DNA of 64,000 bases from an uncultured Lachnospiraceae bacterium (GTDB lineage Bacteria > Bacillota > Clostridia > Lachnospirales > Lachnospiraceae): assembly GCA_964449325.1 (NCBI GenBank), contig CAYUYJ010000013.1, positions 9,006-73,005 on the forward strand. Direction: 5' to 3'. A program made the translations under genes and the position numbers. Positions 26,896 through 35,485 of this stretch are shown piece after piece. The notes under the pieces were generated by a model, which did not search any database, was not told the DNA's origin, and worked only from the letters and a program-made list of their open reading frames with translations. Every line of letters begins with the position of its first letter. Within the stretch, counting starts at the first letter, position 1.

Positions 26896-27037
26896 GTAAG
26901 CGCTTAAATTTTGCCCGGATAGAATAATCCTCAGAAATCTTTCATAATGGAGTTAGTGTTGTAGTCTTTTGCTACGACTCGAAACTCAAGTGTTCTGTAT
27001 GTTAGACACTTTTACTACGATTATGGAGGATTCTATT

Positions 27038-27457
27038 ATGGCAAGATTTCAAAGCCCTCGCCGTTCTGACGAAGAATGGTTCCAACTCATCAACGAATGC
27101 CGCAGAAGCGGCCTGTCAGATTCCTTATGGTGTAAGCAGCAGGCCATCCCTGTTTCTTCTTTTTTCTGTGCAGTGCGCAGATTACGGGAAAAGGCATATG
27201 CGCTCCCGGAGCGTGAACGTTCCATTGATATCGTTTCGAATCCGCTTCCTTGTCAGGATGTGGTACGAATTGATATAGAACCGAATCCTTTAACAGTAAA
27301 GGAACCGGAATCTTTGCAGGTAATTCCTGCAACGCACCTTGACAATTCACATACAGTTGAAATAGAAGTTCACGGGATGAACATTCGTATCTTTAATGGT
27401 GTTGACACAGGACTCCTTAAGACAGTCCTTTCTTCTTTGGGAGGTGCCGGATGCTAG
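27038..27457 (+). CDS. tnpA: IS66 accessory protein TnpA (orf1)
   Basis: 139-aa ORF from the ATG preceded by GGAGGA. It has the position and size of IS66 orf1, and its stop overlaps the tnpB start. Confidence 0.8.
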   Translation: MARFQSPRRSDEEWFQLINECRRSGLSDSLWCKQQAIPVSSFFCAVRRLREKAYALPERERSIDIVSNPLPCQDVVRIDIEPNPLTVKEPESLQVIPATHLDNSHTVEIEVHGMNIRIFNGVDTGLLKTVLSSLGGAGC

Positions 27458-27810
27458 GTGATATCTCAGGAGTAAGGGAAATCTACATTGTGACAGGGTA
27501 CACCGATATGAGAAAGTCTTTGGATGGATTATGTGCCATCATCGAAGAGCAGTTCTCTATGAGTGTGTCATCCAGTGCCCTTTATCTTTTTTGCGGGAAG
27601 AAATGTGACCGCATCAAGGCACTCCTTCGCGAGCCTGATGGAATGACTCTTTTGTATAAAAGGCTTTCCGTATCACAGGGAAGGTACCGTTGGCCCAGAA
27701 ACAAATCCGAGGTAAGAAACCTTACCTGGCAGGAGTTTGACTGGCTGATGTCCGGTCTTGATATCGATCAACCCAAGGCAATCAAAGTGGATTACAGTGC
27801 TGCTTCGTAG
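27451..27810 (+). CDS. tnpB: IS66 Orf2-like protein TnpB
   Basis: 119-aa ORF with characteristic IS66 Orf2 sequence (IYIVTGYTDMRKSLDGL..., LYLFCGKKCDRIK). Confidence 0.88.
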   Translation: MLGDISGVREIYIVTGYTDMRKSLDGLCAIIEEQFSMSVSSSALYLFCGKKCDRIKALLREPDGMTLLYKRLSVSQGRYRWPRNKSEVRNLTWQEFDWLMSGLDIDQPKAIKVDYSAAS

Positions 27811-27910
27811 TGTCGAAAAGTACGATGTTTTCGGCATTTTAGGCTATCAAAAATTACTCAAAAGTGGTATAATAAAGACAGTTAAAACCACCGTTTTGAG
27901 GAGAAAAAAA

Positions 27911-29551
27911 GTGGCCAGAAATTCTTTGGAATCCCGTCTCATGGAGCAGAGCGACATGATCATGCAACTGAATAAGACGATCCTTTCTCTGCAGCAGACC
28001 ATAGAGAGTTTCAATGCCAAAGAAGCTGCTATGCTGCAGGAGATACAAACCCTTAAGGAGCAGAATGACTATCTTACCAAGAAGCTCTTTGGGAAATCCA
28101 GCGAAAAGAATCCCTGGGATATGGAAGGTCAGCTCAATCTTTTCAATGAGGTCGAGCAGGAACAGAATACATCATTACTTGAAGAAGAACAGGAAGAAAC
28201 AAAAACCGTTACTTTCACGGTTAAAAAAGGCCGTTCTACCGACAAGGATCGTTATGCAGGTCTTCCTGTAGAAAAAAAGTATCTGGATGTTCCTGAAGAA
28301 GAACGCTTCTGTCCGGATTGTGAGTCACCGCTTTTAGAAATCGGCGAAACCTTCGTACGCAGGGAACTGAAGTTCAAACCTGCATCTTTTAAGGTGGTTG
28401 AGTATTACAGTAAGAACTACAAGTGCCCTAAATGTTCTCCGAACCTGAAAACACCTGTAATCGTACAGGGAAAGGATGGAAGGGCTCATATGCTCCACGG
28501 CATGGCCTCTGCTTCTACTGTTGCCTGGGTGATGTCCCAAAAGTATGTCAATGCGATGCCTCTTTACCGTATCGAAAGAGATTTTAAACAATACGGTGTA
28601 AATATCACCAGAGCAACACTTGCCAACTGGGTCATTCAGAATACAGACCGTTTTTTTTCACCCTTTTATAACTATCTGCATAAGCTGCTGCTAAAACGGG
28701 TCTTTATCATGGCAGATGAAACCGTTGTACAGGTGCTTCATGAAGAAGACCGCAGACCGGAAAGCAAGTCCTACATGTGGATTTTCCGAAGTGGCGAAGA
28801 TGGACAGGAGCCCATCATCCTCTATCAGTATTCTCCCACCAGAGCAGGAGAAACAGCCACGGATTTCCTGGATGATTTTTCAGGATATATCATGTGTGAC
28901 GGATACAGTGGTTACAATAAGCTAAAGAAAGCCAAACGAACCACCTGCTGGTCTCACGTCAGGAGATATCTTCTGGATGCCATCCCCAAAGGAAAAAAGA
29001 TGGACTACACACTGCCTGCTGTACAGGGGGCTATGTATGTAGACAAGCTTTTCCACTTGGAAAAGGAAATCAAAAAGAAGCACAAAAATGACTACGAATC
29101 CATAAAAGCAGCCCGCCTCGAGAAAGAAGTACCTGTTCTGGAGGGCTTTTGGTCGTGGTTTGAGAAACAGCATGCCGTAAAAGGATCCAGAATGGAGAAA
29201 GCCCTTACCTACATCCAAAACAGAAGGTCTGATATGATGACCTATCTGGAGGATGGGCGTTGCAGTTTCTGCAATAACCTAAGCGAAATCGAGGTAAAAC
29301 CCATTGCACTTGGAAGAAAGAATTATCTCTTCTCTGACACTACCGCAGGTGCGGATTCCAGTGCTGTCATTTATTCTCTGGTAGAAACTGCCAAAGCGAA
29401 TGGACTGAACATGTACCATTATCTCTGGTATCTGTTGGAAGAATTGCCCCAAACAGACTTATCAGAAGAAGCCTTTGAAAAGTATCTGCCCTGGAATCCG
29501 GAAGTAAAAACTGCCCTGGAAGAAAAAGCACAAAAACTTCTGGAAGATTAA
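27911..29551 (+). CDS. tnpC: IS66-family DDE transposase TnpC
   Basis: GTG start after GAGGAG. It has an N-terminal leucine-zipper-like helix, a CPDC..CPKC zinc-ribbon, and DDE-region strings MADETVVQV, CDGYSGY and CWSHVRR. Confidence 0.9.
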   Translation: MARNSLESRLMEQSDMIMQLNKTILSLQQTIESFNAKEAAMLQEIQTLKEQNDYLTKKLFGKSSEKNPWDMEGQLNLFNEVEQEQNTSLLEEEQEETKTVTFTVKKGRSTDKDRYAGLPVEKKYLDVPEEERFCPDCESPLLEIGETFVRRELKFKPASFKVVEYYSKNYKCPKCSPNLKTPVIVQGKDGRAHMLHGMASASTVAWVMSQKYVNAMPLYRIERDFKQYGVNITRATLANWVIQNTDRFFSPFYNYLHKLLLKRVFIMADETVVQVLHEEDRRPESKSYMWIFRSGEDGQEPIILYQYSPTRAGETATDFLDDFSGYIMCDGYSGYNKLKKAKRTTCWSHVRRYLLDAIPKGKKMDYTLPAVQGAMYVDKLFHLEKEIKKKHKNDYESIKAARLEKEVPVLEGFWSWFEKQHAVKGSRMEKALTYIQNRRSDMMTYLEDGRCSFCNNLSEIEVKPIALGRKNYLFSDTTAGADSSAVIYSLVETAKANGLNMYHYLWYLLEELPQTDLSEEAFEKYLPWNPEVKTALEEKAQKLLED

Positions 29552-30590: not shown

Positions 30591-30728
30591 AATGATTATC
30601 TCCATTTCCCGGTGCAATCCAGAACTGCACCGATTTATTGTTCTATTGATATATGTAATAAAACGGATAATTCCGTTGGGTTTTCATAGGTAGAATTGAG
30701 GGAGTCGTGGGACTCTCTCGTGTTTGGT

Positions 30729-31928: not shown

Positions 31929-32021
31929 CACCGAGCAGCTTGTAACAGTTCAAGCAAATTTTGCTCAGAAAGGAGTACATATGTGCACTCAATTCGATTA
32001 CTAGGAGGTACCAAATGGGAA

Positions 32022-33779
32022 TTACACGCGTACTGTTTCATTAGAGTGGCGGACATATTTTACCCCGTTGTAAAAACATGTTTCACCTATATTTTTGCTT
32101 TTAAATACAAGCAATTCTGTATCGTGGTAATCAAAAGGCTCGAAAGTCTCCAGAATGTACTCTTTAAGCTTTTCTGAAATAGGTTCGGTGTCTAGAAGCT
32201 TCCGTATGCGTCTGTAGTAAGAATCAGTACTGCCACATAATTTCTCAGCTTCTTTTGTTATACCCGGTATATAATGCTGGTTATTAATTAAAGCCTGCTC
32301 TTTGTAAGTACTGTACCAGCTATCATAGGCTTCTTTTGAATCAGCAACACCTAAAACAACTAATCCCTCCTCTTTGGCGCTAGTGGTGTTCGCCATTGCG
32401 ACAAGGGTTTTTGCTATATCGTGAATTACATTCATGTTGACAGATGTAGAAGAAAAATCAGATATACCGACTTTAAATTCTGTCATCTGCCTTTCAATTT
32501 TGGAGTAACCTAATCGTTTGTCTATTTCATCCTGTAGTTCACTATGTTTCTTTGCAATCTGCTTAACAAACGCCGGACGAAGTAGTTTATAGACTATATC
32601 TATTGTTTTGCTTACTTGAGCGTAATCAATCCGGGAGCTTTTTGTAAAAGCATCAAAACTGCCTGCTGCATCTTTTATTGCATTAGCTACCTCTTGATAA
32701 TTCGAAATTACAAACCCTTCTTCCAGCAGTCTGTACACTGCTATAAAAAGAACTTTAAAACATTCGTCTTTATTGCTTACGCGCCGGCTGCTAAATAGAA
32801 AAGATGAAAAATCAGAATTTACTGAGTCGAAAACCATATCTATTGTATCAAAGGTTTTCCTGAATTTGTTTTCCAGATTATCTTTGCCAAGTTCTGAAAT
32901 CCGATTCTCAATCTGGTTGTTCAGGATGGTACCTTTTTCGTACAGCTGGTCTAAACGGTCTTTACTCTTCTTAAAGTCTTTCAATAGAATCATAGCAAAT
33001 AAAGTCTCTATGATTTCTTCATCTTTAGACTCTTTGATATTCTGCGGGTCGATAAGATCATGCCTTCTCCAGAAGACTGCATCCAAGTCAACTCCATAAC
33101 CATACTGTTTATAGCCGACACTAATTTTAGGTATATCGCATAAGCAAATATGGTCATCGTAAGTATGGTCTAAGCGCACATCACTTGCTACGCGTCTAAC
33201 CAAATCAGGAAACTCTCCGACTGCCTTAGACTGTCTCAAATCATGTGAGGAGATTTGTCTTCCAGTTGAATTTATCCTACTGAATATCATATCCACAGTA
33301 GCATTATCCTTACCTGTTATTATAGCAGGAATCTGATATCTGCAGAATTCAATGCACAATTCTTTCGGCAGCAGTCTATCATGCTTCTTTAACTGCTTGT
33401 CCTGATTCATGAGCAGTTGAAATGTTTCATTATTAGCATTAGGGTCAAAGTAACAGTTTTCGTTGTTGTATTCAATTGAGAACTCTCCCAATACAAACGA
33501 GATAATAGCATTGAGTCGCTGCATTCCGTCGACTATCTCGAGAATGTTTCTTTTATTCTCAGAAGGAACATCATATTTAACCAAAAGAATTGCAGGCAAG
33601 GGTATTTCTCTAATCATGGAATCGATAAGGAGTCTTTTTTCATCGATTCCCCATACTAACTTTCTCTGGTATCTACGGTTAACATAAAACAGATTCTGTA
33701 CGTAATTAGCTATTATGTCATTTACAGTATATTTTTCTACAGTTAATGTGTTGCTCATAGTACGGTCACTCCAATTCAT
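32022..33779 (-). CDS. DUF262 (ParB/Srx-like NTPase) - AlbA_2/Schlafen-like fusion protein, defence-type
   Basis: Start taken at MNWSDRT (GGAGG SD 7 nt upstream), giving 585 aa. The N-terminus has DUF262 strings (RRYQRKLVW..., EIVDGMQRLNAI, the DGQQR-type motif). The C-terminal ~150 aa has the AlbA_2 pattern (MTEFKVGI..., IAKTLVAMANT, GLVVLGVAD, KYVRHSNETV). I see no DUF1524 His-Me nuclease motif. Confidence 0.8.
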   Translation of the reverse strand: MNWSDRTMSNTLTVEKYTVNDIIANYVQNLFYVNRRYQRKLVWGIDEKRLLIDSMIREIPLPAILLVKYDVPSENKRNILEIVDGMQRLNAIISFVLGEFSIEYNNENCYFDPNANNETFQLLMNQDKQLKKHDRLLPKELCIEFCRYQIPAIITGKDNATVDMIFSRINSTGRQISSHDLRQSKAVGEFPDLVRRVASDVRLDHTYDDHICLCDIPKISVGYKQYGYGVDLDAVFWRRHDLIDPQNIKESKDEEIIETLFAMILLKDFKKSKDRLDQLYEKGTILNNQIENRISELGKDNLENKFRKTFDTIDMVFDSVNSDFSSFLFSSRRVSNKDECFKVLFIAVYRLLEEGFVISNYQEVANAIKDAAGSFDAFTKSSRIDYAQVSKTIDIVYKLLRPAFVKQIAKKHSELQDEIDKRLGYSKIERQMTEFKVGISDFSSTSVNMNVIHDIAKTLVAMANTTSAKEEGLVVLGVADSKEAYDSWYSTYKEQALINNQHYIPGITKEAEKLCGSTDSYYRRIRKLLDTEPISEKLKEYILETFEPFDYHDTELLVFKSKNIGETCFYNGVKYVRHSNETVRV

Positions 33780-33791
33780 AATGATACCTCC

Positions 33792-33819
33792 ATTATAGCT
33801 TAATATATTATTTTGTAAA
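33792..33819 (-). promoter_or_regulatory. putative sigma-A promoter of the DUF262 gene
   Basis: The minus strand reads TTTACA-N16-TATAAT, and the -10 element ends 1 nt before the GGAGG SD. The region is AT-rich, so a chance match is possible. Confidence 0.35.
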
Positions 33820-33925
33820 TATAATGTTTTCCGTAGACATTGTCTCTGAATTAAAGAGAGTCGCTGCACACGTAGCATAAAAGTATTTACATATTGAGCA
33901 CATACTACTTTGTGTCGAACAAGCT

Positions 33926-33950
33926 GGGTACTAGTAACTTACTAGTACCC
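33926..33950. other. 25-nt near-perfect palindrome (12-bp arms)
   Basis: GGGTACTAGTAA-C-TTACTAGTACCC, followed on the plus strand by TTTCGCTTTAT. Confidence 0.6.
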
Positions 33951-34045
33951 TTTCGCTTTATAATTAATAGCGACAATTGAGACGCTACTGCTGACTTCTC
34001 AGCATAAATAAATTTGTAAAGGGGTACTTTTACCCTTCTTGCGGT

Positions 34046-34099
34046 GCTTATGCCAGGCATTACAGCTTTGGCTGTAATTGCAACGATTGTTGTGAAATG
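34046..34099. repeat. island repeat copy 1 (~55-nt element)
   Basis: GCTTATGCCAGGCATTACAGCTTTGGCTGTAATTGCAACGATTGTTGTGAAATG. It contains a perfect 8-bp dyad ATTACAGC/GCTGTAAT and the CAACGATTGTTG palindrome. Confidence 0.8.
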
Positions 34100-34164
34100 T
34101 GCCTGTTTTTAAAATTAAAATAAGCAATGCCATAGCCAGTGGATTTTCTTATTATGAGGCGCTT

Positions 34165-34219
34165 GATTATGTGTTGGTGTTACAGCTTTAGCTATAATTG
34201 CAACAATTGTTGTGAAATG
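34165..34219. repeat. island repeat copy 2
   Basis: GATTATGTGTTGGTGTTACAGCTTTAGCTATAATTGCAACAATTGTTGTGAAATG, 119 nt after copy 1. Confidence 0.8.
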
Positions 34220-34285
34220 CATACAAACTAAAAGGGGAAGGAATTCGTAGGGTATGCGCATGCCCAATGAATAGCCCTTCTGTTT

Positions 34286-34324
34286 GATTATGCGTTGGTA
34301 TTACAGCCTTAGCTATACAATGTT
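34286..34324. repeat. island repeat copy 3 (truncated/diverged)
   Basis: GATTATGCGTTGGTATTACAGCCTTAGCTATACAATGTT, 121 nt after copy 2. Confidence 0.7.
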
Positions 34325-34478
34325 ATCTACGGGAGCTTGCACTCCCATCATAGATACAGGAGGCAGATAGGGACAGCCCTCTTACTCATTGTCGAAGAAT
34401 ACAATAGAAACTTCTTAATACCTGTGACATAAACACTGCAAGAAAGATAAAAGATATTTTAGTAATACAGCATAGCTT

Positions 34479-34506
34479 GGATACCTATGCGAGCACATAG
34501 GTATCC
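34479..34506. other. perfect 11-bp stem hairpin
   Basis: GGATACCTATG-CGAGCA-CATAGGTATCC within the ORF-poor region. Confidence 0.6.
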
Positions 34507-34586
34507 AACTTGAATCCGCTGCTCTGTAAAAGAACTCAATACAATAAGATTTACAGTGCGGAACGCTGCAACTACATTTTAAAGGG

Positions 34587-34615
34587 GCTGGTAAGTTACC
34601 AGCTCTTTCCTTTTT
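34587..34615 (+). terminator. intrinsic-terminator-like hairpin plus T-tract (plus strand; possibly bidirectional)
   Basis: GCTGGTA-AGT-TACCAGC followed by TCTTTCCTTTTT on the plus strand. On the minus strand it lies 60 nt after the stop of the hexapeptide-repeat gene, with only a weak U-tract. Confidence 0.5.
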
Positions 34616-34662
34616 AGAGAATGACATATTACAAAACCTTTTCAAAAATTTGTCATCGGTAA

Positions 34663-35166
34663 TTAGGACAAAAGTGCTTTAAGTGCTGTGTTTACAGCCT
34701 CTTTGAACGCTTCATCGTCCAGTTCATTAATGCATGTAGGCATATAAAGAGCTGCATTGCTGACTAATTCAGTAATGTACGTAACGAATCGGTCGTCAGA
34801 CGTTATACTCAGCAGAGTCGCAGCGTTGTCTAAGTTGAGCTCACCAGAATTCTGAGTAGGCGCACTCTGTCCCAATAGTTTGGCTAGGTCACTATCTGTA
34901 CTTATATCAACACTGCCGTCAACTATAATATTTTCGCCAATATGCACATTACCATGCACTTTAGCATTTCCATGGACGATAGCAAATCCATGAACATGTG
35001 CACTTCCATAAACATGTGCGACTCCATAAACCTGAGCCTTTCCATAAATCTCAGCATCTCCAGAGACGCAAGCAAATCCACAGACATACGCATTCTCAGA
35101 AACCCGGGCATTCTTGGCAATATTCTGTACAGAATCTGCAGTTGATGAAGTGTATTTTATAATCAT
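34663..35166 (-). CDS. hexapeptide-repeat (left-handed beta-helix) protein with His/Tyr ladder
   Basis: Eleven consecutive 6-residue repeats: NARVSE NAYVCG FACVSG DAEIYG KAQVYG VAHVYG SAHVHG FAIVHG NAKVHG NVHIGE NIIVDG. A helical C-terminal ~70 aa follows. The start is uncertain (ATG 35166 or 35190, neither with a good SD). The upstream part of the tracked 248-aa ORF is judged spurious. Confidence 0.55.
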   Translation of the reverse strand: MIIKYTSSTADSVQNIAKNARVSENAYVCGFACVSGDAEIYGKAQVYGVAHVYGSAHVHGFAIVHGNAKVHGNVHIGENIIVDGSVDISTDSDLAKLLGQSAPTQNSGELNLDNAATLLSITSDDRFVTYITELVSNAALYMPTCINELDDEAFKEAVNTALKALLS

Positions 35167-35188
35167 TAACAAAGAAAGGAGGAAAAGC

Positions 35189-35485
35189 ATGGATAGTATT
35201 TCCAAGGACAAAAGTGAGCTTAAAGTAATTGCCACAGGGATTTTCGTGATTTTGTATCTTTGCACTGTAATAACAGCTGCCGATAAGCTACCCCTAGCTA
35301 TTGGCATTGCACTCTCGTTTACGAATATTATTAGTGCATCAATACTTTGCTGGATTGTAAGTATTACGTTTAAGCATTTACAAAATTTGTGGATATACCA
35401 ATTATCCAAACGCGTGTACTATGCAGCATTGTTGTTCTCAATGGCATTTGTTCCGTTTACTGTATCTCTTAATATTGGTAATTGA
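35189..35485 (+). CDS. small three-TM membrane protein
   Basis: 98-aa ORF (MDSISKDKSELK then three hydrophobic helices) with a strong AAAGGAGG SD 5 nt upstream. It is antisense to the 5' extension of the beta-helix ORF. Confidence 0.55.
   Translation: MDSISKDKSELKVIATGIFVILYLCTVITAADKLPLAIGIALSFTNIISASILCWIVSITFKHLQNLWIYQLSKRVYYAALLFSMAFVPFTVSLNIGN

What the first reader, a model, noticed from the sequence alone, without database searches (positions are those of the whole stretch)
33780..34662. ~880-nt ORF-poor, hairpin-dense region with three ~55-nt repeats at ~120-nt spacing between defence-like genes: candidate structured RNA, RNA-antitoxin-like array or decayed mini-toxin genes
Seen: there is no credible ORF between the DUF262 start (33779) and the stop of the beta-helix gene (34663).

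Three copies of one element lie at 34046-34099, 34165-34219 and 34286-34324.
- Each carries the dyad TTACAGC-N4-GCTGTAA. Copy 1 has a perfect 8-bp stem.
- Copies 2 and 3 share one C.A mismatch on the plus strand. That position would be a G.U pair in a minus-strand RNA.
- Each dyad is followed by the CAAC(A/G)ATTGTTG palindrome.

The region also contains unusually long perfect hairpins: 33926-33950 (12-bp arms), 34479-34506 (11-bp stem), and several 5-7-bp GC stems. It ends with GCTGGTA..TACCAGC plus TCTTTCCTTTTT, a plus-strand terminator-like signal.

There is also a coding-like reading.
- Copy 1 encodes a 20-aa hydrophobic peptide, MPGITALAVIATIVVKCACF (34050-34112).
- Copy 2 in the homologous frame reads LCVGVTALAIIATIVVKCIQTKRGRNS, a TM helix plus basic tail resembling a type I toxin. 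One extra nucleotide puts the conserved ATG out of frame.
- From that ATG, copies 2 and 3 encode MCWCYSFSYNCNNCCEMHTN and MRWYYSLSYTMLSTGACTPIIDTGGR.

Inference: this is one of three things. It could be a structured ncRNA or repeat-RNA associated with the neighbouring DUF262 or beta-helix genes. It could be a decayed tandem family of small toxic-peptide genes. Or it could be iterated protein-binding sites. None of these is explained by the annotated features.
Basis: partly seen in the sequence, partly recalled or inferred. Interest (0 to 1): 0.72.

Follow-up and report, generated by a model that had tools for sequence, protein, structure and literature searches.

The report
Broken small membrane-protein gene and orphan terminators
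The repeat-rich "empty" stretch is most likely not a structured RNA: it looks like the wreck of a plus-strand gene pair (a gene cut off by the DUF262 defence gene, and a tiny membrane-protein gene) in a patchwork defence island, so it is largely ordinary.

Summary
The repeats and hairpins are real. One related contig (L013, 92-95% identical over window 33834-34686) explains most of the region.

- **The repeats are coding sequence.** In L013 an intact 82-aa plus-strand ORF runs through them. Window copy 1 is its N-terminus and copy 2 is its C-terminal membrane helix plus basic tail. In the window the middle of the ORF is replaced by non-homologous sequence. That leaves a 20-aa stub and a copy with no start codon.
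- **Later copies are degenerate.** Copy 3 is decayed in the same way in both strains. A fourth partial copy lies inverted at 34400-34453.
- **The 12-bp hairpin is an orphaned terminator.** It ended a plus-strand gene ("X", 186 aa in L013) whose interior the DUF262 cassette replaced. The last 14 codons of X survive at 33836-33880.
- **The closing hairpin (34582-34608) is a plus-strand terminator** kept in both strains.
- **There is no link to the neighbouring genes.** L013 carries the module without the DUF262 or beta-helix gene. Seven loci with DUF262 homologues lack it.
- **No known family matches.** Rfam gives nothing. The small protein has no true relative among 1.84 billion representative proteins.

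Verdict: a mosaic of gene relics. A type-I-toxin-like role for the small gene is not excluded.

The parts
32003..32027 (+). Surviving RBS (AGGAGG), ATG (32015) and first 4 codons of plus-strand gene X. This lies outside the finding but is needed to explain it.
   Evidence: L013 1-20 is 100% identical to window 32008-32027; sequence read.
32028..33833 (-). DUF262/GmrSD_N + AlbA_2 cassette (ORF 32022-33779, with its own promoter-like site and leader at 33780-33833). It replaces about 500 nt of gene X interior.
   Evidence: Pfam and PADLOC hits. This stretch has no blastn match in L013, where 501 nt of gene X lie between the same flanks.
33834..33880 (+). Relic 3' end of gene X: the last 14 codons DIVSELKRVAAHVA plus TAA (33836-33880).
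   Evidence: tblastn of the L013 gene X product: 81% identity over 16 aa at 33830-33877. Nucleotide alignment.
33926..33959 (+). T1: intrinsic terminator of gene X (12-bp stem plus TTTCGCTTT), now orphaned.
   Evidence: Terminator scans of the window and of L013. In L013 a 9-bp core stem is kept and the changes fall in the inner stem and loop. It lies 44 nt after the gene X stop in L013.
34027..34112 (+). Copy 1: leader plus a 20-aa ORF (34050-34112, MPGITALAVIATIVVKCACF). This is the N-terminus of the P0126-type gene joined to a C-terminal-type core, followed by an early stop.
   Evidence: Window 33834-34078 matches L013 522-765 at 94.7%. Alignment. Translations.
34079..34165 (+). An 87-nt stretch that stands in place of the 135-nt middle of the ORF in L013. 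It is made of the 3' half of copy 1 plus a decayed spacer, with four in-frame stops.
   Evidence: Not alignable to L013 766-900. Weakly similar to the copy 2-copy 3 spacer. Stops seen in frame +0.
34166..34250 (+). Copy 2: the C-terminal hydrophobic helix plus basic tail (LCVGVTALAIIATIVVKCIQTKRGRNS*). It has no start codon and is preceded by an in-frame TGA at 34164-34166.
   Evidence: Orthologous to L013 901-985, the C-terminus of P0126. 4 synonymous and 3 non-synonymous codon changes in this frame.
34233..34283 (+). H2: a long hairpin that overlaps the stop codon of the small ORF.
   Evidence: Folding energy is -20.8 / -18.6 kcal/mol on the plus strand against -11.6 / -14.7 on the minus strand, in the window and L013 respectively.
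34284..34350 (+). Copy 3: a degenerate copy (5' core only, frame shifted by +1, no start codon). It is decayed in the same way in L013.
   Evidence: L013 1021-1053.
34400..34453 (-). Copy 4: an inverted partial copy of the leader, the ATG and the first codons. It is complementary to 34027-34055 if both are transcribed on the plus strand.
   Evidence: Inverted repeat I1, 29 nt at 83%. blastn E=0.005, and E=3e-4 for L013 copy 1 against it. Alignment. One difference from L013 in 54 nt.
34477..34508 (.). A 13-bp perfect hairpin of unknown role. The stem is identical in L013 and both differences fall in the 6-nt loop.
34582..34616 (+). T2: a plus-strand intrinsic terminator that closes the module.
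   Evidence: Terminator scans in both alleles. On my reading of the two sequences, two window G.U pairs at the base of the plus-strand stem read as A-U in L013.
34619..34686 (+). A 37-nt piece (34619-34655) resembling gene X codons 17-29 (ENDILQNLFKN against WNDRLQNIFKN), then the end of the shared module. Positions 34666-34686 supply the last 7 codons of the 248-aa minus-strand gene.
   Evidence: blastn against L013 55-91 (89%) and 1358-1393. Homology with L013 stops at 34686.

Best explanation
Window 33834-34686 is the remnant of a plus-strand transcription unit, wedged between minus-strand cassettes of a mosaic defence/TA island.

**Original layout (as in L013):** gene X (186 aa, unknown function), then terminator T1, then a small membrane-protein gene, then a long 3' region, then terminator T2.

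**The small gene.** Its product is 82 aa, with hydrophobic segments at about residues 1-35 and 52-76 and a KRGR tail. Its N-terminal and C-terminal helices are internal repeats.

**What happened in the window.**
1. The DUF262 cassette replaced the interior of gene X. This left X's RBS and first codons at 32003-32027, its last 14 codons at 33836-33880, and its terminator (the 12-bp hairpin).
2. The small gene is broken. Its middle is replaced by a decayed extra copy of the C-terminal unit carrying four stops. What remains is a 20-aa stub (copy 1), a start-less C-terminal copy (copy 2), an older dead copy (copy 3) and an inverted fragment (copy 4).

**The dyads.** TTACAGC-N4-GCTGTAA is simply the DNA that encodes I-T-A-L-A-V-I. 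CAACAATTGTTG encodes A-T-I-V-V.

**Shown versus inferred.**
- Shown: the homology, the breakpoints, the ORF states and the conserved terminators.
- Inferred: that the plus-strand ORF is a real gene, the direction of the rearrangements, and that the window allele is non-functional.
For: - **The homologue.** A peptide search with copy 1 plus copy 2 found one protein, P0126 (82 aa, E=2.4e-6), whose N- and C-termini match copies 1 and 2.
- **The shared module.** Its contig L013 is 94.7% identical to window 33834-34078 and 92.4% identical to 34166-34686. The flanks are unrelated.
- **Gene X.** Its tail and start are in the window on either side of the DUF262 cassette.
- **Terminators.** T1 and T2 score as plus-strand terminators in both alleles.
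- **Reading frame.** Between the window and L013, the plus membrane-helix frame has 5 synonymous and 4 conservative non-synonymous codon changes. The wobble-sharing antisense frame has 3 and 7. The other four frames have 0-1 synonymous changes.
- **Third-position bias.** 11 of 17 orthologous and paralogous differences fall on the third codon position of that frame (p=0.008, or 0.024 after correcting for three phases).
- **Codon usage.** The plus ORF scores +3.5 bits and the minus ORF -18.6 bits.
- **Hydropathy.** P0126 has two hydrophobic segments, residues 1-35 and 52-76.
- **No alternative family.** No Rfam family matches. No link to DUF262 homologues.
Against: - Only one related allele exists, so there is little power to detect selection or covariation.
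- The small ORF has no Shine-Dalgarno sequence within 19 nt of its GTG or ATG in either allele, although gene X and DUF262 both have strong ones.
- No promoter-like site was found upstream of it in either allele.
- An 84-codon open frame in AT-rich DNA is not by itself improbable.
- P0126 has no true homologue among 1.84 billion representative proteins, so it could be a fortuitous ORF.
- The cores are 91-93% identical while the spacers are almost unalignable. That needs gene conversion or selection on the cores, and simple decay does not predict it.
- About 360 nt between the ORF stop and T2 stay unexplained, including the perfect 13-bp hairpin.
Confidence: 0.62

Rival explanations
1. The module is a working, or recently working, type-I-toxin-like locus. 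A small hydrophobic peptide or protein is encoded on a plus-strand mRNA. Its start region (34027-34055) is sequestered by pairing with the complementary copy-4 segment (34425-34453) in the 3' UTR, much like fold-back inhibition in hok mRNA. An unidentified antisense RNA would neutralise it. The tandem copies would be paralogous toxin genes, as in Ibs/Sib or Ldr/Rdl.
For: - Copy 1 is a 20-aa hydrophobic peptide. The copy 2 frame is a membrane helix plus a KRGR tail.
- Tandem copies lie about 120 nt apart.
- 29-38 nt of complementarity between the 5' leader and the 3' region is present in both alleles and forms in the plus-strand minimum-energy fold.
- The copy-4 segment is the best conserved part of the module (1 difference in 54 nt).
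- The setting is a TA/defence island (HipA-like, Fic, DUF262; DarG-like macro domain in L013).
- Lack of a free Shine-Dalgarno sequence would fit tight translational control.
Against: - No match to any type I toxin family in Pfam, nor to any antitoxin RNA in Rfam. The fstAT match (17 bits, E=7.5) is noise and is not reproduced in L013.
- There is no Shine-Dalgarno sequence at all, rather than a sequestered one.
- The scans of the two alleles found no shared minus-strand promoter-like site over the repeats.
- Copies 2 and 3 cannot be translated in the conserved frame.
- The intact relative is 82 aa with 2-3 hydrophobic segments, larger than typical type I toxins.
- The higher conservation of copy 4 is not statistically significant (my estimate is about p=0.1).
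- There is no covariation in the long-range helix.
Confidence: 0.12
2. The real gene is on the minus strand: a 109-aa ORF in L013 (673-1002) and a 50-aa ORF in the window (34115-34267). The repeats would be its coding sequence, and the plus ORF would be a shadow of it.
For: - Both alleles have a Shine-Dalgarno-like motif (GAGGGGG in L013, GAAGGG in the window) 7 nt before the TTG start.
- The frame is open for 109 codons in L013.
- It shares wobble positions with the plus frame, so the third-position bias fits it as well.
- It has the same orientation as the flanking cassettes.
Against: - It shows 3 synonymous against 7 non-synonymous changes, including M>I, G>V and C>W. The plus frame shows 5 against 4.
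- Its codon-usage score is -18.6 bits, against +3.5.
- Its T/P/A/S-rich composition and its lack of stops are what one expects in the antisense frame of an I/T/A/V-rich ORF with few Tyr, His or Gln.
- The gene caller chose the plus strand.
- Both conserved terminators are oriented for the plus strand.
Confidence: 0.1
3. The dyads are iterated binding sites for a dimeric DNA-binding protein (operators, a partition site or an origin), spaced about 120 bp apart.
For: Each core holds an 18-bp inverted repeat, TTACAGC-N4-GCTRTAA. The window cores of copies 1 and 2 also hold a gapless 12-bp palindrome. The first dyad is present in all three L013 cores.
Against: - The gapless palindrome is missing from copy 3 and from the L013 orthologue (CAACGATTATAG).
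- Differences follow a 3-nt periodicity, as in coding sequence.
- The module and its nearest neighbouring genes contain no recognisable replication, partition or regulator gene.
- The dyad pattern was not found as a family in the genome, metagenome or viral collections.
Confidence: 0.05
4. It is a structured non-coding RNA or a ToxI-like repeat RNA (type III antitoxin style) that serves the DUF262 gene or the beta-helix gene.
For: - On the minus strand the order is repeats, then a hairpin, then DUF262.
- Folding is more stable than shuffled sequence, most strongly on the minus strand (z=-9.1).
- The shared C.A mismatch of copies 2 and 3 would be a G.U pair in a minus-strand RNA.
Against: - L013 keeps the module but has neither the DUF262 nor the beta-helix gene.
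- Seven loci with DUF262 homologues lack it.
- There is no Rfam match.
- Whole units are only 41-55% identical, unlike processed antitoxin repeats.
- The G.T position in copy 1's second palindrome favours the opposite strand.
- The low folding energy goes with inverted gene fragments and terminators.
- DUF262/GmrSD proteins are DNA endonucleases, not RNases (established knowledge of the family).
Confidence: 0.03

Closest known systems
Gene remnants and orphaned intrinsic terminators at cassette junctions of mosaic defence/TA islands
   Same: A gene (X) was cut by an incoming defence cassette, leaving its RBS and first codons, its last codons and its terminator. The flanks are unrelated in a 93%-identical relative. 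An IS66 element lies next door. The neighbouring 248-aa gene borrows its last 7 codons from the module.
   Different: Nothing essential. The specific genes (X and the 82-aa protein) are orphans with no family.
Tandemly duplicated type I toxin loci (Ibs/Sib, Ldr/Rdl, Fst/RNAII; hok mRNA fold-back inhibition)
   Same: A small hydrophobic ORF with a membrane helix and a basic tail. Tandem copies about 120 nt apart. An intergenic position in a TA-rich island. 5'-3' complementarity that could mask the start codon.
   Different: No sequence or covariance-model match to any of these families. No Shine-Dalgarno sequence. No antisense promoter or antitoxin RNA identified. Only one translatable copy (20 aa). 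The intact relative is 82 aa. Toxicity is untested.
Type III ToxI-like antitoxin RNA repeat arrays
   Same: Direct repeats followed by a hairpin, upstream of a defence gene on the same strand.
   Different: Only 35-55-nt cores are conserved and whole units are 41-55% identical. There is no ToxN/AbiEii-type RNase. The module occurs without the DUF262 gene and the DUF262 gene occurs without the module.
Small multi-helix membrane proteins built from internally duplicated transmembrane helices
   Same: The N-terminal and C-terminal helices of P0126 share G(I/V)TALA(V/I)I. Clustered differences between orthologous cores suggest gene conversion between paralogous cores.
   Different: There are no homologues, so neither the fold nor the function can be assigned.

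Membership tests
Type I toxin-antitoxin system | A small (usually under 60 aa) hydrophobic toxin ORF that can be translated (start codon plus ribosome-binding site) | tested here: inconclusive
   Copy 1 gives a 20-aa hydrophobic ORF with ATG or GTG but no Shine-Dalgarno sequence within 19 nt. Copies 2 and 3 have no start in the conserved frame. The intact relative is 82 aa.
Type I toxin-antitoxin system | A cis- or trans-encoded antisense RNA with its own promoter that pairs with the toxin mRNA | tested here: not met
   The scans found no minus-strand promoter-like site over the repeats in the window and none shared by both alleles. No Rfam antitoxin family matches: fstAT scores 17 bits against a gathering score of 72, and is absent in L013. 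The consensus scans are crude, so this is weak negative evidence.
Type I toxin-antitoxin system | Sequence membership in a described toxin family (Fst/Ldr, Hok, Ibs, TxpA/BsrG, and so on) | tested here: not met
   Six-frame hmmscan of the region and of P0126 against Pfam, NCBIfam and PHROGs found no toxin family.
Type I toxin-antitoxin system | Toxicity of the peptide and neutralisation by the RNA | not testable with these tools
   This needs expression experiments.
Type III (ToxIN-like) toxin-antitoxin system | Near-identical short tandem RNA repeats directly upstream of the toxin gene | tested here: not met
   Units are 41-55% identical overall. TRF finds no array.
Type III (ToxIN-like) toxin-antitoxin system | An adjacent ToxN/CptN/TenpN-type endoribonuclease | tested here: not met
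   The neighbours are DUF262/GmrSD_N + AlbA_2 and a beta-helix protein. The module occurs without them in L013.
Known structured RNA families (Rfam 15, including OLE, GOLLD, ROOL, HEARO) | A covariance-model score at or above the family's gathering threshold | tested here: not met
   0 hits in the whole window at gathering thresholds. Only four sub-threshold matches at E of 0.19 or worse in 33500-34900. None in L013.
Rho-independent (intrinsic) terminator | A G+C-containing stem-loop followed directly by a T-run on the transcribed strand, placed after a gene end | tested here: met
   T1 (33926-33950 plus TTTCGCTTT) lies 45 nt after the gene X stop. T2 is 34582-34608 plus CCTTTTT. Both are detected on the plus strand in the window and in L013.
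Pseudogene / gene remnant | A homologous locus carries an intact ORF where this locus has truncation, stops or no start | tested here: met
   Gene X is 186 aa in L013, against 4 + 14 codons here. The small ORF is 82 aa in L013, against a 20-aa stub plus a start-less copy 2 with four intervening stops.

The most novel reading that the evidence does not exclude
The conserved 853-nt module is a previously undescribed, very rare type-I-toxin-like locus of Clostridia-type Firmicutes. A hydrophobic peptide or protein gene has a start region that is masked by a 29-38-nt long-range pairing with an inverted copy of its own leader (copy 4) in a 360-nt structured 3' UTR. The tandem cores are kept alike by gene conversion. 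The module persists as a stable anchor between swappable defence cassettes because it is addictive.
Probability: 0.1. Interest if true: 0.55.

Novelty: new member of a known kind. Interest (0 to 1): 0.22.

Why it matters
The main value is as a caution. A hairpin-dense, repeat-bearing, ORF-poor gap next to defence genes looked like a structured RNA or an antitoxin array. One related allele accounts for most of it as gene wreckage:
- an orphaned terminator;
- a truncated gene;
- a broken small membrane-protein gene whose helix-coding DNA happens to be palindromic.

It also shows at base-pair resolution how a DUF262 cassette replaced the inside of a resident gene, and how a neighbouring gene acquired a foreign 3' end.

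If the small gene proved to be a toxin with fold-back control, it would add a new, very rare type I family in Firmicutes.

Tried and rejected
**Searches for the region or its parts elsewhere**
- blastn of the region against PLSDB plasmids and INPHARED phages: no match.
- Wobble-degenerate core pattern and a three-copy consensus pattern scanned in genome contigs, metagenome contigs and viral contigs: no true hit. The four metagenome matches are chance hits in marine contigs with no flanking similarity.
- Exact scans for the copy-4 segment and the 13-bp hairpin in viral contigs: nothing.
- Search for other copies of the repeats or hairpins in the 64-kb window: none.

**Searches through neighbouring genes**
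- Exact-protein look-ups of neighbouring genes: only the same strain (L001 and L014, identical).
- Co-occurrence with DUF262: four homologues gave seven loci, none similar to the region.
- The beta-helix gene has no full-length homologues, so it gave no synteny information.

**Family and homology searches**
- Six-frame hmmscan against Pfam and PHROGs, to test for a decayed known gene: nothing.
- Exhaustive phmmer with P0126: only spurious hits to giant repeat proteins.
- tblastn of gene X against plasmids and phages, and the search for related loci in viral contigs for X and P0126: nothing.
Joining the two peptides solved this.

**Ideas rejected**
- The Cys-rich frame (MCWCYSFSYNCNNCCEMHTN), despite a GAGG 8 nt before its ATG: all its differences are non-synonymous.
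- Frame -2 as a decayed long gene (10 stops against 17-22 in the other frames): by my estimate not significant after correcting for six frames. It also runs through the hairpins.
Full report
**1. The observation**

The region lies between the start of a DUF262 (GmrSD_N + AlbA_2) gene and the stop of a 248-aa gene, both on the minus strand.
- The DUF262 ATG is at 33779, preceded by GGAGG. The 248-aa gene stops at 34663.
- No ORF exceeds 76 aa. None matches Pfam or PHROGs in any frame.
- The repeats are real:
  - Copies 1 and 2 share 40 nt at 92.5% identity, 120 nt apart (E=1e-11 against the window).
  - Copies 2 and 3 share 34 nt at 91% identity, 121 nt apart (E=2e-8).

- The second palindrome follows only copies 1 and 2.
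- The hairpin near 34479-34506 has 13-bp arms (34477-34508).
- Whole units are only 41-55% identical, so this is not a regular array.
- There is a fourth partial copy in inverted orientation at 34453->34400.

Both strands fold better than shuffled sequence (z = -5.6 and -9.1). The predicted folds are built from the inverted copies and the perfect hairpins.

**2. Context**

The window is a Firmicute-type chromosome segment: chemotaxis receptor, hybrid kinase, MatE, amidase, 41% G+C. An island at about 27-38 kb contains:
- IS66;
- an isochorismatase-like gene;
- DUF262 (NsnA-like in PADLOC, 1e-26);
- the 248-aa gene, with weak hexapeptide/YdcK beta-solenoid similarity;
- a HipA_C-like gene with a 125-aa partner;
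- a Fic gene.

There are no tRNA genes and no Rfam family anywhere in the window.

**3. Searches that found nothing**
- The region has no blastn match in plasmids or phages.
- Two degenerate patterns built from the repeat cores found nothing in 185,579 species genomes, the JGI metagenomes or IMG/VR. The only exceptions were four chance matches.
- DUF262 homologues at 66-68% identity sit in prophage or defence hot spots in seven loci. None has any similarity to the region.
- The 248-aa gene has no full-length homologue.
- Exact-protein look-ups returned only an identical strain.

**4. The decisive relative**

A protein search with the copy-1 and copy-2 peptides joined together gave one hit, P0126 (82 aa, E=2.4e-6):

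MTGITALAVIYHIVGAFALIIGVVSLWGTAVLFMAKGVQQKLNPYDVSFGEISPKLCVGVTALAIIATIIAKCIQTKRGRTS.

Its contig L013 (2.7 kb) aligns with the window as follows:
- Window 33834-34078 matches at 94.7%.
- Window 34166-34686 matches at 92.4%.
- The 135 nt encoding residues 11-55 of P0126 are replaced in the window by 87 non-homologous nucleotides (34079-34165).

This gives the following reading of the copies:
- Copy 1 is the N-terminus of this ORF. It is joined to the 3' half of a C-terminal-type unit and then hits stops.
- Copy 2 is the C-terminal helix and basic tail. An in-frame TGA lies just upstream and there is no start codon.
- Copy 3, copy 4, hairpin H2, the 13-bp hairpin and terminator T2 are all present in L013 too. 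Copy 3 is already degenerate there.

**5. The left and right ends**

Left end:
- L013 8-568 is an intact plus-strand gene X (186 aa, no family). Its last codons (…TLDIVSELKRVAARVA*) run into the shared module.
- The window keeps DIVSELKRVAAHVA* at 33836-33880.
- The 12-bp hairpin plus T-run follows 45 nt later. It is a plus-strand terminator in both alleles.
- Gene X's AGGAGG, ATG and four codons survive at window 32003-32027, on the other side of the DUF262 gene.
- So the 1.8-kb DUF262 cassette (32028-33833) replaced about 500 nt of gene X and orphaned its terminator.

Right end:
- Homology ends at 34686, which is 21 nt inside the 248-aa gene. That gene's last 7 codons are therefore module sequence. 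In L013 a different minus-strand gene ends exactly at the junction.
- A 37-nt piece after T2 (34619-34655) resembles gene X codons 17-29. It occurs twice in L013.

**6. Which strand codes?**

The plus membrane-helix frame and one minus frame share wobble positions, so both look constrained. Four lines of evidence favour the plus frame:
- Between the window and L013, the plus frame has 5 synonymous and 4 conservative non-synonymous changes (P/T, V/I, V/A, N/T). The minus frame has 3 and 7. The other frames have 0-1 synonymous changes.
- 11 of 17 orthologous plus paralogous differences fall on the shared third position (p=0.008, or 0.024 after correction).
- Codon usage scores +3.5 bits for the plus ORF and -18.6 bits for the minus ORF.
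- Both conserved terminators face the plus strand. P0126 has two clear hydrophobic segments and a basic tail.

Evidence against a real gene:
- There is no Shine-Dalgarno sequence and no promoter-like site in either allele.
- The minus ORF does have a GA(A/G)GGG motif 7 nt before its TTG.
- P0126 has no true homologue among 1.84 billion representatives.
- P0126 matches no family in Pfam, NCBIfam, PHROGs or PADLOC.

**7. The dyads**
- ATT ACA GCT TTG GCT GTA ATT encodes ITALAVI and is self-complementary.
- GCA ACA ATT GTT GTG encodes ATIVV.
- The second palindrome is lost in the L013 orthologue (ATT ATA GCA) through four clustered changes. The window's copies 1 and 2 agree with each other at those positions, which suggests gene conversion between paralogous cores.
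- Strand signals conflict. The C.A mismatch in copies 2 and 3 would be G.U on the minus strand. The G.T position in copy 1's second palindrome favours the plus strand.
- There is no compensatory change anywhere.
- Some one-sided changes keep plus-strand hairpins, on my reading:
  - T2: G.U in the window reads as A-U in L013.
  - The copy 3 hairpin gains a C-G pair in L013.

**8. Conclusion**

The region is best read as a mosaic of relics of a plus-strand unit: the gene X tail, T1, a broken small membrane-protein gene with degenerate extra copies, T2, and a gene-X-like scrap. It sits between minus-strand cassettes that differ between strains. I put this reading at about 0.6.

What simple decay does not explain:
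- the sharp contrast between the 91-93% identical cores and the unalignable spacers;
- the well-kept copy 4, which is complementary to the start region;
- the perfect 13-bp hairpin.

These features keep a type-I-toxin-like reading alive at about 0.1. A structured RNA, a ToxI-like array and protein-binding iterons are each unlikely, at about 0.05 or less.

With only one informative relative, more alleles and transcript mapping are needed to settle the question.

Noticed in passing
window 30638-30678; L013 1755-1795 and 2253-2293: A 41-nt element (TATTCTATTGATATATGYAAYAAAACGRATAATTCCGTTG, with a 6-bp hairpin AACGGA/TCCGTT) lies 15-20 nt upstream of the start of three unrelated minus-strand cassette genes in the two strains. 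It could be a shared junction, leader or terminator-promoter unit between swappable cassettes.
   Followed up: partly
window 32003-32027 and 33834-33880: The DUF262 cassette sits precisely inside a plus-strand gene (X). X's RBS and first 4 codons are on one side and its last 14 codons are on the other. About 500 nt of gene interior were replaced by 1.8 kb in the opposite orientation.
   Followed up: yes
window 34663-35409 (the 248-aa beta-helix gene): Only about 30% of the protein has homologues (hexapeptide / YdcK beta-solenoid). Its last 7 codons and its stop come from the shared module. It is probably a truncated or fused gene.
   Followed up: partly
window 33792-33819 (minus strand): An 11-of-12 promoter match (TTTACA-16-TATAAT) abuts the DUF262 GGAGG. 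A transcript starting from it would begin after the Shine-Dalgarno sequence. Either the DUF262 mRNA is nearly leaderless or the real promoter is the weaker match at 33846-33818.
   Followed up: no
L003 1390-1872: A ToxN_toxin (type III TA) gene lies two genes upstream of a DUF262 homologue in a metagenomic prophage-like locus. I did not check whether ToxI-like repeats precede it.
   Followed up: no
L002-L008: The closest DUF262-AlbA_2 homologues (66-68% identity) sit in prophage hot spots, next to tape-measure genes, S24/HTH repressors and an AIPR gene. This fits the protein being a mobile anti-phage cassette.
   Followed up: partly
window 34619-34655; L013 55-91 and 1358-1393: A 37-nt segment (GAATGACAKATTACAAAACMTTTTCAAAAAT...) occurs once inside gene X and once just after terminator T2. 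It is either a scrap of a second gene X copy or a short recombination-prone repeat.
   Followed up: partly
window 26969-29551: An IS66-family element (TnpA-like 162 aa, TnpC 597 aa) bounds the island on its left side.
   Followed up: no
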